From assembly GCA_943356495.1 (NCBI GenBank), contig CALRFF010000002.1, forward strand, positions 99,826 to 163,825: a stretch of DNA of 64,000 nt, written 5' to 3'. The position numbers were made by a program, and so were the translations under genes. The stretch is from Candidatus Nomurabacteria bacterium. Its GTDB lineage: Bacteria > Patescibacteriota > Minisyncoccia > Phycocordibacterales > SBAW01. Positions within the stretch are counted from its first letter, which is position 1, and the number at the start of each line of letters is the position of its first letter. Positions 57,668-60,935 of this stretch are shown in pieces. The notes under the pieces were generated by a model. It was not told the DNA's origin. It ran no database searches and worked only from the letters and a program-made list of their open reading frames with translations.

Positions 57668-60600
57668 AATAATAAGGGCGTATGGTGGATGCCTAGGCTT
57701 TGAAAGGCGATGAAGGACGCAGCGTGGCGGCGATACGCTTCGGGGAGGTGCCAAGCAACCTTTGATCCGGAGATGTCCGAATGAGGAAACTCTCTAGAGA
57801 GAAATCTTTAGAATCTTCTAGCAATAGAAGATGCAAACCGTGGGAAGTGAAACATCTCAGTACCACGAGGAAAAGAAACCAATAGGTATTTCGTTAGTAG
57901 CGGCGAGCGAACACGAATCTAGCCCAAACCGTTGATTTGCCAAAACCGTCTTGTCGCAAGACAGGATGGTCTTGGTAGATCTCGGGGTCGTAAGGCAGTT
58001 ATAGTGCACTCGATGCACAAGAAGTTACAAATCGTTAGATAGCAGAAGCCGCTGGGAAGCGGCGCCCTAGAGGGTGAAAGCCCCGTAAGCGAAATCAAAA
58101 CGACTTCTTAATTGTCCTTGAGTAACTCAAGACACGAATAGCTTGAGCGAATGTGCCGGTACTAACCGGTAAGGCTACATACTTTCAAAGACCGATAGTG
58201 AATTAGTACCGTGAGGGAAAGGTGAAAAGAACCCCGGCGAGGGGAGTGAAATAGATCTGAAACCATATGTCTACAAGGAGTGGGAGAGGGCGCAAGTCCT
58301 CGACCGCGTGCCTATTGAAGAATGAGCCTGCGAGTTTATGTGTACTGCGCATGGCTAAGGTCGAGAGACCGGAGCCGCAGCGAAAGCGAGTGTGAATAGC
58401 GCGACTTTGTAGTACGCATAAGACCCGAAGCCAGGTGAGCTACCCATGAGCAGGGTGAAGGCGGTCGAAAGACCGCTGGAGGCCCGAACCGTTGAGCCGT
58501 TCAAAACTCTCGGATGACTTGTGGGTTGGAGTGAAAAGCTAATCGAACCTGGTAATAGCTGGTTCTCTCTGAAACAGCTTTTGGGCTGGCGTCGTATTTA
58601 TTGAGTAGTGGGGGTAGAGCACTGGAAGGATTGGACAGGTCGAAAGATCGCTAATCCTATCAAACTCCGAATACCATTACTGTTATACGGCAGTTAGTAC
58701 GTGGGGGCTAAGCTCCACCGTACAAAAGGAGAAGAGTCCTAGATCTCAAGTTAAGGTCCCAAAATCTATGTTAAGTGCATCACAAGGAGGTAGAATTTCG
58801 TAGACAATGAGGAGGTTGGCTTAGAAGCAGCCATCCTTGAAAGAAAGCGTAACAGCTCACTCATCGAGAGATTCCGCGCCAAAGATAATCGGGGCTCAAA
58901 CATAGTACCGAAACTGAGGGCTTGGTGTGACTTCGGTCTATCCAAGCGGTAAGAGAGCGTTCCCATCTGCAATGAAGGTAAAGGCGCGAGCCATGCTGGA
59001 GCGTTGGGAAGTGAGAATGCAGGCACAAGTAACCGCAATGCGGGTGAGATCCCCGCACGCCGAAAGCACAAGGTTTCCTACTCAACGGTGATCAGAGTAG
59101 GGTTAGTCGGGCCTAAGGGGATGGCGAAAGCCGCACCCGATGGACACAGGGTTAATATTCCCTGACCGGCGCGTAAGTGATGGAGGGACGGAGGACACAA
59201 GTTGACGCGTCTTATTGGATTGACGTCGGTACTCTAAGCTACGTATCCCAGGCAAATCCGGGATGCTGCTTTAATGCAAGTAGCGCGAGGGCAGAGCACA
59301 CGCGGCTTCGGTCGTGTGGATGTCAGCGAAGAGCCTCCCAAGAAAAACTTCTAAACTTAATTACGCGTACGACCGTACCGCAAACCGACACAGGTGTGCA
59401 GCTCGAGTAGAGCAAGGCGAACGAGTGAGTGTGCTCCAAGGAACTCGGCAAAAAAGCGGCCGTACCTTCGGAATAAGGCCTGCCCATCGCAAGATGGGCC
59501 GCAGCGAAAGTCTCCCTGGCGACTGTTTACCAAAAACACAGCTCCCTGCGAACTCGTAAGAGGATGTATAGGGGGTGACACTTGACCAATGCCAGAAGGT
59601 CAACTATGGCCGTTGTGTGATCGCAAGATTACATGGTGAGCTGTATAAGCCCTGGTGAATGTCGGCGATAACTATAATCGTCCTAAGGTAGCGAAATTCC
59701 TTGTCTGGTAAGTTCAGACGCGCACGAATAGTGTAACGACTGGGGAACTGTCTCGGAGCACAGCTCGGTGAAAATACAATACCGGTGAAGATGCCGGTTA
59801 CCTGCAGATAGACGAAAAGACCCCAGAAGCTTTACTGCAACTTGATATTGCGTATACGGATGTGCTGCGTAGCATAGGTGGGAGAGGTTTGACGGTTACG
59901 ATCTCGGTTGTGATCTACTCGAAATATGAAATACCACTCTGTATGTTTGTATGCGCTAACCGGCGGGATTAAACCCCGTCGAGACAGTATCTGGCGGGCA
60001 GTTTTAGTGGGGCGCTATCCTCCTAAAAAGTAACGGAGGAGTGTATTAAGGTCCTCTAGGCGCGAATGGAAACCGTGCCGATAGCGTAATGGCAAAAGAG
60101 GGCTTGACTGCAAGTCGTAAATGACAAGCAGGTGCGAAAGCAGACCATAGTGAACCGACCATGGGCATTAGACGCCGTGGAAGATTATCTGACAAAAGCT
60201 ACTCTGGGGATAACAGGCTAGTTCCGCCTAAGCGTCCATAGCGACGGCGGAGTTCGGCACCTCGATGTCGGCTCATCACATCCCGGGGGTGAAGAAGCTC
60301 CCAAGGGTATGGCTGTTCGCCATTTAAAGTGATACGCGAGCTGGGTTCAGACCGTTCAGCAACTGAACAGTGTTCAGTGATTGAACAGTCTGAACCCTCG
60401 AGAAGAAGTTTCGTTTGAATCTGAAGAAAAGAGAAAAGAAAAGAGAACAACCATCACGGCGGCTCCGACGTAAAAGTCGGAGAGAAGCTAACTAATATCG
60501 GTGGAATCCTAGAAGATAACTAGGGCTATACCGAGGGAAGGTCGCAAGACTACCCGTAGAGACTAATCGTTAGCAGCCCGCGAGCAATCGCGAGGTGAAG

Positions 60601-60935
60601 TTATAGTCCGATGCACGCAGCAATGCGTGAGAACATGCGTGAGACAGGTTGGTCTCCTATCTACTGCAGGCGTTGATTATTGAAGAGGTTTGCCCCTAGT
60701 ACGAGAGGACCGGGGTGAACGGACCGCTGGTCTGCCAGCTCTGCCGCCAGGTGGAACGCTGGGTAGCTATGTCCGGATTGGATAAGCGCTGAAAGCATCT
60801 AAGCGCGAAGCCGGCTCTAAGATGAGTAATCATTAAGATCCGTTAAAGATGATGACGTTGATAGGCTTTAGCTGTAAGTGCCGTAAGGCATTGAGGCGAG
60901 AAGTACTAATCGATCGAGTTTCTCAAACTTTGTTT
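57668..60935 (+). rRNA. rrl: 23S ribosomal RNA, containing a ~280-nt insertion (intron/IVS) in domain V
   Basis: 5' region reads ggtggatgcctaggc...gatgaaggacg. Internal landmarks include gtaccgtgagggaaagg, the sarcin-ricin region, ctagtacgagaggaccgg and gctgaaagcatctaag near the 3' end. Confidence 0.9.
60352..60630 (+). other. intervening sequence / candidate small group I intron within 23S rRNA (E. coli position ~2585-2595)
   Basis: The conserved 23S sequence cgagctgggttcaga | acgtcgtgagacag is interrupted. About 279 nt rich in GNRA-capped hairpins (ccgcgagcaatcgcgagg, gcacgcagcaatgcgtga, gttcagcaactgaac) lie between gggttcaga and gaacatgcgtgagacaggtt. The insert ends in G. Confidence 0.6.

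What the first reader, a model, noticed from the sequence alone, without database searches (positions are those of the whole stretch)
60352..60630. ~280-nt insertion in 23S rRNA domain V at the E. coli 2585-2595 intron hot-spot
The universally conserved sequence around the GGGUUUAGAACGUCGUGAGACAG stretch is split by a 279-nt insert with several GNRA-capped hairpins and no ORF. The position coincides with known group I intron insertion sites (L2584-L2596). The insert ends in G. It could be a minimal self-splicing intron, or an IVS that is excised by RNase III to leave a fragmented 23S.
Basis: partly seen in the sequence, partly recalled or inferred. Interest (0 to 1): 0.5.

Follow-up and report, generated by a model that had tools for sequence, protein, structure and literature searches.

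The report
Group I intron in 23S rRNA

Summary
The insertion is real. Its exact limits are 60356-60637 (282 nt), not 60352-60630. It follows the U equivalent to E. coli U2593 in helix 93 of domain V, and removing it restores a canonical H93.

It is a group I intron, not an RNase III-type IVS. Every element is present: a guide sequence AUCACG|GCGG that pairs with both exons, with G.U at the splice-site U; P2 to P9 including the P3/P7 pseudoknot; and a terminal G.

- Rfam Intron_gpI matches at 37.5 bits (E 4e-8), below its gathering score of 50.
- A covariance model built only from 14 other L2593 introns finds this one place in the 64-kb window (136 bits, E 6e-38).
- The helices covary across relatives.
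- No ORF is present. The closest host relative carries a LAGLIDADG endonuclease gene in its intron at the same site.

The host's 23S is closest to a Ca. Adlerbacteria MAG. Group I introns at position 2593, with or without an ORF, are a published hot-spot in CPR 23S genes, so this is a new member of a known kind.

One less ordinary detail: in this subfamily the guide lies about 100 nt from the 5' splice site. Ahead of it, a conserved, covarying hairpin pairs 13 exon nucleotides and the start of the intron. P7.1/P7.2 are absent.

The parts
57662..60928 (+). 23S rRNA gene (host gene), 3267 nt including the intron; the 5S gene follows at 61029-61142
   Evidence: Rfam LSU_rRNA_bacteria 2321.6 bits, full length 1-2925; 5S 70.7 bits
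60356..60637 (+). Group I intron, 282 nt, inserted after U2593 (60355); the 3' exon resumes at C2594 (60638)
   Evidence: Alignment with E. coli rrl gives one insertion at exactly these coordinates; Rfam LSU alignment; spliced sequence restores helix 93
60343..60352 (+). 5' exon GGGUUCAGAC (E. coli 2581-2590), 5' strand of helix A
   Evidence: Pairs 10/10 with 60388-60397. Relatives with exon U2586 or A2588 carry the matching change in the intron strand (5 of 5). MFE fold
60354..60386 (+). Hairpin spanning the 5' splice site: helix B (G2592, U2593 and intron nt 1-4, 60354-59, with UUGAAC 60381-86) and helix B2 (60362-68 with 60372-78)
   Evidence: MFE fold. In 31 family members intron nt 1 and nt 2 covary with their partners, with 10 and 14 double changes
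60388..60397 (+). Intron strand GUCUGAACCC, complement of exon 2581-2590 (3' strand of helix A)
   Evidence: In 21 of 22 genome-collection relatives where the exon could be located, the best 10-mer complement in L1 forms 9-10 of 10 pairs; it is the conserved (G/A)UCUGAAYCC motif, with matching variants where the exon differs. It is present in 11 more metagenome members, although those were retrieved with a search pattern containing this motif
60398..60452 (+). Purine-rich linker with a UUUCGUUUGAAU motif, between the 5' hairpin and the guide sequence
   Evidence: Sequence. Similar UUCGUYUA and A/G-rich tracts at the same place in relatives. Function not tested
60453..60462 (+). Internal guide sequence AUCACG|GCGG. 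UCACG (60454-58) pairs with 3' exon CGUGA (P10). GCGG (60459-62) pairs with 5' exon CCGU (P1), with G60459.U60355 at the splice site
   Evidence: ACGGCGG (guide positions 4-10) is invariant in 15 of 15 aligned family members. P10 was recovered by unsupervised RNAalifold. Introns in AACGU exons carry GCGU instead
60463..60482 (+). P2 hairpin CUCCGAC-GUAAAA-GUCGGAG
   Evidence: By hand and MFE. All 7 pairs show double changes in relatives, on a rough alignment
60487..60492 (+). P3 5' strand GCUAAC
   Evidence: Pairs with 60569-74. There are 18 different complementary P3 versions among 23 family members
60498..60534 (+). P4 (60498-503 / 60529-534) and P5 (60507-511 / 60521-525) with J4/5 GAA and J5/4 CUA
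   Evidence: Rfam alignment; RNAalifold; P4 98.9% paired; P5 has 5 pairs with double changes
60535..60555 (+). P6 (GGG/CCC) and P6a GGUC-GCAA-GACU
60561..60565 (+). P7 5' strand GACUA, within the invariant GUAGAGACUA
   Evidence: Pairs with UAGUC at 60604-08. Invariant in all family members. Matches the Rfam consensus AGACUA / UAUAGUC
60569..60574 (+). P3 3' strand GUUAGC. It follows P7 after 3 nt, so there is no room for P7.1/P7.2
   Evidence: Contrast with L088, which has two hairpins here
60577..60595 (+). P8 CCCGCGA-GCAA-UCGCG(A)GG
60596..60608 (+). J8/7 and P7 3' strand: UGAAGUUAUAGUC
   Evidence: Matches Rfam consensus UGAAGAUAUAGUC. AUAGUCC is invariant in the family
60614..60629 (+). 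P9 CACGCA-GCAA-UGCGUG
   Evidence: 100% paired, with 5 of 6 pairs showing double changes in relatives
60637..60637 (+). Terminal guanosine (omega G), the last intron nucleotide
   Evidence: Invariant column G185 in the family alignment
60638..60642 (+). 3' exon CGUGA (C2594 to A2598), the P10 partner of the guide sequence

Best explanation
The insert is an ORF-less group I intron at site L2593 of the 23S rRNA gene of a CPR/Patescibacteria bacterium.

Inferred mechanism, by the standard group I pathway. In the precursor rRNA the guide sequence 5'-UCACG|GCGG-3' (60454-62) pairs its GCGG with the last four exon nucleotides CCGU. This forms P1 with a G.U wobble at U2593. The folded core (P3-P9) binds a free guanosine in P7, and that guanosine attacks the phosphate after U2593. 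The terminal G60637 then takes the guanosine site, the UCACG half of the guide aligns the 3' exon CGUGA (P10), and the 3'-OH of U2593 attacks after G60637. This ligates ...GACCGU-CGUGAGACAG... and restores helix 93 next to the peptidyl-transferase centre.

Shown here: the exact insertion, all sequence and structure elements, their conservation and covariation in relatives, and membership in a large family of L2593 introns. Inferred, not shown: that splicing happens, and whether it is autonomous or protein-assisted.

This intron belongs to a subfamily in which the guide lies about 100 nt from the 5' splice site (55-250 nt in relatives). The intervening L1 domain forms a long hairpin that pairs exon 2581-2590 (helix A) and G2592-U2593 plus the first intron nucleotides (helix B). 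My reading, which is inference, is as follows. Helix A tethers the 5' exon and so compensates for a P1 of only 4 bp. About three pairs at the A/B junction must open so that the distal guide can capture CCGU.

The intron probably descends from a LAGLIDADG-encoding mobile intron that lost its endonuclease gene.
For: - Exact 282-nt insertion at 60356-60637 relative to the Rfam LSU model and to E. coli rrl.
- Rfam Intron_gpI match at 60406-60630, full model 1-253, E 4.4e-8.
- A covariance model built from 14 other L2593 introns, window excluded, gives one hit in 64 kb on both strands: 60453-60647, 136 bits, E 6e-38. This score lies within the 120-183 bit range of the 23 family members.
- Unsupervised RNAalifold on a MAFFT alignment recovers P10, P4, P5, P6, P7, P8 and P9.
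- The full hand-drawn structure is 81.5% paired, against 36-44% when partners are slid. 34 pairs show double changes, and 0 of 500 shuffles reach the observed values.
- P3 exists in 18 different complementary versions among 23 sequences.
- The core of the guide, ACGGCGG, is invariant in the 15 aligned members, and introns in AACGU exons have GCGU instead.
- The terminal G is invariant.
- The single-sequence MFE fold reproduces the same helices, z = -6.66.
- The intron at the same site in the closest 23S relative (Ca. Adlerbacteria, L091) encodes a 173-aa LAGLIDADG_1 protein.
- Published surveys list position 2593 as a hot-spot for group I introns, with and without ORFs, in CPR 23S genes, and state that such insertions are removed from transcripts (PMC11270868).
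- For the 5' hairpin: exon-intron covariation in 5 of 5 variant exons, and 10 and 14 double changes at intron nt 1 and nt 2.
Against: - The Rfam score (37.5) is below the family's gathering score (50).
- No RNA data or splicing assay was available here, so excision and exon ligation are inferred.
- P1 is only 4 bp. In the lowest-energy fold the splice-site U is Watson-Crick paired with A inside a stable hairpin. That hairpin would compete with P1, so efficient splicing may need a helper or co-transcriptional folding.
- The 3' segments used for the hairpin pair counts were picked by best pairing, which inflates the paired percentage. The covariation at intron nt 1-2 is less affected by this.
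Confidence: 0.93

Rival explanations
1. The insert is an intervening sequence (IVS) cut out by RNase III without religation, leaving a fragmented 23S rRNA.
For: Bacterial 23S IVSs exist, and short non-intron insertions are reported in CPR 23S genes (PMC11270868). The 5' hairpin (helices A, B and B2, about 23 bp) is a long duplex of the general kind that RNase III can cut.
Against: A complete and covarying group I core, guide sequence and terminal G are present. The two ends of the insert do not pair with each other into a terminal stem. The site lies inside the stem of helix 93 next to the peptidyl-transferase centre, whereas the published sites of RNase III-cut IVSs in CPR 23S genes are different ones, 23IS2 and 23IS4. 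That the classical IVS positions are helices 9, 25 and 45 is from my own knowledge. The same family carries homing endonuclease genes in relatives.
Confidence: 0.02
2. It is a group I intron, but one that cannot splice on its own. It depends on a host or intron-family protein (maturase or chaperone) because P1 is only 4 bp, P7.1/P7.2 are missing and the 5' splice site is locked in a hairpin.
For: The 5' splice site lies in a stable hairpin (5' region -37.5 kcal/mol). The core from guide to terminal G is only 185 nt and lacks the peripheral P7.1/P7.2 found in other L2593 introns (PMC1995217). LAGLIDADG proteins can act as maturases (statement in PMC11270868), and none is encoded here.
Against: Patescibacteria tRNA group I introns self-splice in vitro (PMC13011429). 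Three GNRA loops and an intact core argue for a self-folding ribozyme. Nothing tested here requires a protein.
Confidence: 0.2
3. The long 5' hairpin (helices A and B) is itself the functional P1, with a U-A pair at the cleavage site. On this reading the distal AUCACGGCGG serves only for exon alignment in the second step.
For: The hairpin is conserved and covaries right up to the splice site. In 5 of 31 members the partner of U2593 is G, giving U.G.
Against: In 26 of 31 members the partner of U2593 is A, a Watson-Crick pair. A G.U wobble at the cleavage site is nearly universal in group I introns and important for catalysis (established knowledge). The distal GCGG supplies exactly that wobble, is invariant, and is shared with the subfamily that has a canonical short P1 hairpin and no helix A/B.
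Confidence: 0.07
4. The insert is an assembly artefact or chimera and is not present in the real genome.
For: Independent assemblies of the same organism (L002, L003) break off inside the 23S gene before reaching the intron.
Against: The junctions are exact to the nucleotide at a known intron site. The guide sequence matches this host's own exon variant (ACCGU), and dozens of independent MAGs carry homologous introns at the same site.
Confidence: 0.01

Closest known systems
Group I introns at position 2593 (site 23IS12) of CPR/Patescibacteria 23S rRNA genes (Brown et al. 2015 as cited in, and Tsurumaki et al. 2024, PMC11270868)
   Same: Same host group, same gene, same insertion site, same intron class. 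Both ORF-containing (LAGLIDADG_1) and shorter ORF-less forms are described, and the survey counts 222 ORF-less group I introns in CPR 23S genes. 23 close family members were found here in species-representative genomes.
   Different: Nothing essential. This particular intron, and the structural split into two subfamilies at the site, are not described in the text I read, which contains no secondary-structure analysis of these introns.
L2593 introns of cyanobacteria (Synechococcus C9, S. lividus C1, Thermosynechococcus elongatus; PMC1995217) and, from my own knowledge, the Chlamydomonas chloroplast Cr.LSU / I-CreI intron
   Same: Same insertion site after U2593, group I, and the single-motif LAGLIDADG endonuclease family seen in relatives of the window's intron.
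   Different: Those introns are about 745 nt with an endonuclease gene and have a roughly 65-nt P7.1/P7.2 extension and a short P2. The window's intron is 282 nt with no ORF and no P7.1/P7.2, and it has a roughly 100-nt L1 domain ahead of the guide sequence. A second CPR subfamily (L088, L048, L024, L053, L084) does have P7.1/P7.2 and a canonical short P1.
RNase III-processed intervening sequences of bacterial 23S rRNA
   Same: Extra sequence in a 23S gene that is absent from the mature rRNA and has no ORF of its own.
   Different: An IVS is an extended hairpin that replaces a helix tip and is cut without religation. Here there is a group I core, a guide sequence and a terminal G, and no terminal stem. 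A different insertion in this same gene (57934-57981) looks more like that kind of element.
Tetrahymena pre-rRNA P(-1) alternative hairpin (Woodson and Cech; from my own knowledge)
   Same: A hairpin involving 5' exon nucleotides that competes with P1 formation and can modulate splicing.
   Different: P(-1) is formed within the exon. Here the partner strand is supplied by the intron's own L1 domain, covers 13 exon nucleotides plus the start of the intron, and covaries with the exon across hosts.

Membership tests
Group I intron | P1: the 5' exon end pairs with an internal guide sequence, with a U.G wobble at the cleavage site | tested here: met
   CCGU (60352-55) pairs with GCGG (60459-62), with U60355.G60459. 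GCGG is invariant in the family, and introns in AACGU exons carry GCGU. P1 is short at 4 bp.
Group I intron | P10: the guide sequence also pairs with the start of the 3' exon | tested here: met
   UCACG (60454-58) pairs with CGUGA (60638-42). Recovered by unsupervised RNAalifold and 93% paired in relatives.
Group I intron | Conserved core of P3-P9 in the canonical order, with the P3/P7 pseudoknot | tested here: met
   All helices were placed. 81.5% paired against 36-44% for slid controls, 34 pairs with double changes. 18 complementary P3 variants.
Group I intron | Terminal guanosine (omega G) and consensus P7 / J8/7 sequences that form the guanosine site | tested here: met
   G60637 is invariant. 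GUAGAGACUA and AUAGUCC are invariant and match the Rfam consensus.
Group I intron | Rfam RF00028 gathering score of 50 bits | tested here: not met
   37.5 bits, E 4.4e-8 in a 501-nt search, and not listed at the gathering threshold. A family-specific model that excluded the window gives 136 bits. The general model appears to fit this compact subfamily poorly.
Group I intron | Guanosine-dependent self-splicing with exon ligation | not testable with these tools
   Needs an in vitro splicing assay or RNA-seq.
Mobile (homing) group I intron with LAGLIDADG endonuclease | An intron-encoded homing endonuclease ORF | tested here: not met
   No ORF above 30 aa in the insert, and peripheral loops are tetraloops. 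The relative L091 has a 173-aa LAGLIDADG_1 ORF.
IA-type L2593 introns (cyanobacterial / chloroplast type) | P7.1/P7.2 extension between P7 and P3' | tested here: not met
   Only AUC separates P7 (60561-65) from P3' (60569-74). L088 and similar introns have two hairpins there. Description of the cyanobacterial introns is in PMC1995217.
RNase III-processed 23S IVS | The insert folds as one extended stem formed by its two ends and replaces a helix tip at a known IVS site | tested here: not met
   The MFE fold shows no pairing of end with end. The site is inside the stem of helix 93.

The most novel reading that the evidence does not exclude
The subfamily to which this intron belongs recognises its 5' exon in two parts. 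One part is a canonical but minimal distal guide (4-bp P1 plus 5-bp P10). The other is a proximal intron strand that pairs with 13 exon nucleotides (2581-2593) and builds a covarying hairpin with the splice site inside it. This subfamily has lost the P7.1/P7.2 peripheral domain that other L2593 introns keep. The hairpin could be a tether that holds the cleaved 5' exon. It could also be a conformational switch that keeps the peptidyl-transferase-centre nucleotides G2583-U2585 sequestered and times splicing relative to ribosome assembly. I found no description of this arrangement, but my literature check was shallow.
Probability: 0.3. Interest if true: 0.5.

Novelty: new member of a known kind. 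Interest (0 to 1): 0.27.

Why it matters
As an instance it matters little. CPR bacteria are already known to carry insertions in 82% of their 23S genes, and 2593 is a listed hot-spot.

It is useful as a clean, compact example. The core from guide to terminal G is 185 nt, with no ORF, and it sits in what is probably the organism's only 23S gene. Correct splicing at the edge of the peptidyl-transferase centre must therefore be essential to the cell.

The conserved exon-binding hairpin at the 5' splice site, together with the existence of two structural subfamilies that share one guide sequence at one site, could interest RNA structure and ribozyme-evolution researchers. It is also directly testable with a short transcript.

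Tried and rejected
- **Alternative exon assignment (GGGUUC | AGAACAUG-CGUGAGACAG, i.e. an insertion near 2586).** Rejected because the resulting helix 93 cannot pair. Only 60356-60637 restores it.
- **First hand model of L1 as two separate small hairpins (60354-68 and 60371-87).** Replaced by a single long hairpin (helices A, B, B2). This is the MFE fold and matches the architecture of all relatives.
- **Rfam at gathering threshold.** It does not report the intron, so an E-value search on the sub-region was needed.
- **The look-up of encoding contigs with the FtsW/RodA-like ORF.** It found nothing, probably because of a start-codon choice. L7/L12 worked, but the contigs returned stop before the intron.
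- **Genome-collection scan ATAGTC-N15-45-CGTGAGACAG.** 53 of 119 loci passed my first filter for an insertion at that spot, and 51 of those are real L2593 insertions (L033 and L100 lack the exon sequence). The remaining loci were chance matches or truncated contigs.
- **Metagenome scan GTCTGAAYCC-N40-70-CACGGCGG.** It returned mostly chance matches in GC-rich coding DNA. Only 11-12 of 120 are family members, and none is a close relative of this intron.
- **Subgroup assignment (IA/IB/IC).** Not attempted, because no subgroup models were available.
- **Linear E. coli coordinate.** It came out as 2595, not 2593. I traced this to an offset between the RefSeq sequence and the conventional numbering, using landmark positions from memory.
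Full report
**The observation**

Rfam places a complete bacterial 23S rRNA gene at 57662-60928 and a 5S gene at 61029-61142, both on the + strand. In domain V the LSU model alignment shows 286 nt where the model has 4, between ...GGGUUCAGACCGU and GACAGGUUGGUC. A global alignment with an E. coli rrl gives one insertion of 282 nt at exactly 60356-60637.

Read by eye, the 5' exon ends with the U at 60355 and the 3' exon resumes with CGUGAGACAG at 60638. Only this choice restores helix 93 (G-ACCGUC-GUGA-GAC-A-GGU-U). A rival assignment that uses the AGAAC near the 3' end of the insert does not pair.

The likely reason is that GCGUGAGA occurs twice, at 60625-32 and at 60637-44.

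The site is after U2593 in conventional E. coli numbering. Counted along the RefSeq sequence it is position 2595, and the conventional numbers lag by 2 here (the landmark positions are from my own knowledge). The insert ends in G, contains three GCAA-capped hairpins and has no ORF above 30 aa.

**What it is**

The insert has every element of a group I intron.

- **Rfam.** Intron_gpI matches 60406-60630 over the whole model with E 4.4e-8, although its 37.5 bits are below the family's gathering score of 50.
- **Core helices, placed by hand.**
  - P2: 60463-82
  - P3: 60487-92 with 60569-74
  - P4: 60498-503 with 60529-34
  - P5: 60507-11 with 60521-25
  - P6/P6a: 60535-55
  - P7: 60561-65 with 60604-08
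  - P8: 60577-95
  - P9: 60614-29
  - Terminal G: 60637
- **Guide sequence.** AUCACG|GCGG at 60453-62. GCGG pairs with the last four exon bases CCGU, with a G.U wobble at the splice-site U (P1). UCACG pairs with the first five bases of the 3' exon, CGUGA (P10).
- **Single-sequence fold.** The minimum-energy fold of 60343-60647 reproduces these helices on its own (-107.7 kcal/mol, z = -6.66).

**Relatives**

Of these, 51 carry an insertion of 213-776 nt at the same site. Most are Patescibacteria/CPR MAGs: Parcubacteria, Paceibacterota, Giovannoni-, Jorgensen-, Adler-, Colwell- and Nomurabacteria, and MAGs labelled Saccharibacteria. Others come from Acidimicrobiia, an Omnitrophica MAG and DPANN archaea.

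The guide sequence tracks the exon. Introns in ...ACCGU exons have GCGG, and those in ...AACGU exons have GCGU.

- **Unsupervised test.** RNAalifold on a plain MAFFT alignment of 15 ORF-less members recovered P10, P4, P5, P6, P7, P8 and P9.
- **Pair counts.** My full structure is 81.5% paired, against 36-44% when the 3' partners are slid by 1-3 columns. 34 pairs show changes on both sides, and no shuffle out of 500 reaches the observed values.
- **P3.** This helix, which an ordinary folding program cannot predict because it is knotted with P7, occurs in 18 different complementary versions among 23 sequences.
- **Leave-out test.** A covariance model built from 14 of these introns, with the window's own intron left out, finds exactly one place in the 64-kb window. 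The hit is 60453-60647 at 136 bits, E 6e-38. It lies within the range of the 23 family members, 120-183 bits.

**Where it comes from**

The window has L10, L7/L12 and an FtsW/RodA-like gene beside a 23S-5S pair, and no 16S gene in the 57 kb upstream. Its L7/L12 protein is found in the MAGs GCA_943356795.1 and GCA_943354885.1.

Among the loci in hand, the spliced 23S is closest to a Ca. Adlerbacteria MAG (L091), at 85-91% identity. That relative has a 715-nt intron at the same site, which encodes a 173-aa LAGLIDADG_1 protein. The window's intron has only tetraloops where an ORF could sit. The simplest history is therefore loss of the endonuclease gene from a mobile intron, a pattern the published survey also describes (PMC11270868).

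**How it most likely works**

The standard group I pathway is inferred but not shown here.

1. P1 forms between CCGU and GCGG.
2. A free guanosine bound in P7 attacks after U2593.
3. G60637 replaces that guanosine, and P10 aligns the 3' exon.
4. The exons are ligated, which restores helix 93.

CPR genomes usually have one 23S gene (PMC11270868). The site adjoins the peptidyl-transferase centre, so accurate removal must be essential. Whether the RNA splices unaided is unknown. Patescibacteria tRNA group I introns do self-splice in vitro (PMC13011429).

**The less ordinary part**

Two structural subfamilies share this site and this guide sequence.

- **First subfamily** (L088, L048, L024, L053, L084 and others). 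The guide lies 9-34 nt from the splice site in a normal P1 hairpin, and two hairpins (P7.1/P7.2) sit between P7 and P3'. The cyanobacterial L2593 introns are built the same way.
- **Second subfamily, which includes the window's intron.** It has no P7.1/P7.2, and the guide lies 55-250 nt downstream of the splice site.

In the second subfamily the intervening L1 domain always begins with a long hairpin, in three parts:

- Helix A pairs exon 2581-2590 (60343-52) with an intron strand (G/A)UCUGAAYCC (60388-97).
- After one unpaired C, helix B pairs G2592, U2593 and the first intron bases with the strand just upstream of helix A's intron strand (60354-59 with 60381-86).
- A variable tip follows.

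Hosts whose exon has U2586 or A2588 carry the matching change in the intron strand, 5 of 5. Intron positions 1 and 2 covary with their partners, with 10 and 14 double changes in 31 sequences. One caveat applies: the 3' segments for that count were chosen by best pairing.

The partner of the splice-site U in this hairpin is A in 26 members and G in 5. It therefore competes with P1 for G2592-U2593.

I read helix A as a tether for the 5' exon that compensates for the 4-bp P1, and the junction pairs as a small switch. That reading is inference. The opposite reading, that the hairpin itself is P1, is less likely. The invariant distal GCGG supplies the canonical wobble and is shared with the subfamily that has no such hairpin.

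**Comparison with what is known, and novelty**

Group I introns at 2593 in CPR 23S genes, with and without LAGLIDADG genes, are an explicitly listed hot-spot (site 23IS12). The survey counts 222 ORF-less group I introns in CPR 23S genes and says these insertions are removed from transcripts (PMC11270868). L2593 introns are also known in cyanobacteria (PMC1995217) and, from my own knowledge, in the Chlamydomonas chloroplast (the I-CreI intron).

This is a new member of a known kind. The two ends of the insert form no terminal stem, and the site is inside the helix 93 stem rather than at a known IVS site.

Interest is low to moderate. The only feature that might repay work is the exon-binding 5' hairpin and the split into two subfamilies.

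**What led nowhere**

See the separate field. In brief, one protein look-up failed, both collection scans were diluted by chance hits, the metagenome scan gave no close relative, and no subgroup models were available.

Noticed in passing
window 57662-61142 and upstream: The 23S-5S pair has no 16S gene anywhere in the 57 kb upstream. Rfam finds only the LSU, the 5S and one tRNA at 6851-6922. The rRNA genes are therefore unlinked.
   Followed up: no
window 57934-57981 (within a 91-nt excess at 57937-58027 relative to E. coli near position 280): A near-perfect GCAA-capped hairpin of about 21 bp (GAUUUGCCAAAACCGUCUUGUC-GCAA-GACAGGAUGGUCUUGGUAGAUC) extends a domain I helix of the 23S. A second small extra hairpin lies at about 58004-58018. 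The segment 57915-58050 that contains both hairpins folds with z = -5.65. This is the sort of element that could be an expansion segment or an RNase III-cut IVS.
   Followed up: partly
window 59201-59212, 59518 and 60827: Other differences from the E. coli 23S: 12 extra nt at 59201-12, 26 nt missing (E. coli 1747-1772) and 18 nt missing (E. coli 2784-2801). Overall identity is 66%.
   Followed up: no
window 60625-60632 and 60637-60644: GCGUGAGA occurs twice. The 3' strand of P9 plus the following bases (UGCGUGAGAAC) mimic the 3' exon start (GCGUGAGACAG). The closest intron relative, L034, has the identical 3' end, while other family members have different P9 sequences.
   Followed up: partly
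L123 (MAG labelled 'uncultured archaeon'), reverse strand of about 1192-1900: Two group I introns lie only 9 nt apart, one after GGGU (about L2584) and a family member at L2593 (155.6 bits). The first intron splits the exon strand of helix A, so the 5' hairpin of the second can be complete only after the first is spliced. The flanking 23S is 82-93% identical to the window's over the three short segments that align (274, 73 and 55 nt), so the archaeal label is probably a binning error.
   Followed up: partly
L048, L091, L119, L087, L047, L053 and other loci: The family model also hits several further group I introns at other positions of the same 23S genes, with up to about 5-6 hits per locus. 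Multiple introns per gene are common in these relatives, whereas the window's 23S has only this one.
   Followed up: no
L036, L044, L049, L061, L063, L070, L087, L113, L119 (Acidimicrobiia / Actinomycetota MAGs); L074, L077, L107 (DPANN archaea): L2593 introns with matching guide sequences (GCGU for AACGU exons) also occur outside the CPR, in Acidimicrobiia and in DPANN archaea. Several of the Acidimicrobiia introns are about 740 nt.
   Followed up: no
L002 and L003 (independent assemblies of the same organism): Both contigs end inside the 23S gene at almost the same point, equivalent to window positions of about 59054-59079. Public assemblies of this organism tend to break within the rRNA gene before the intron.
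   Followed up: no
window 1-4000: GC content is 0.45 in the first 4 kb, against 0.52-0.59 in the rest of the window.
   Followed up: no
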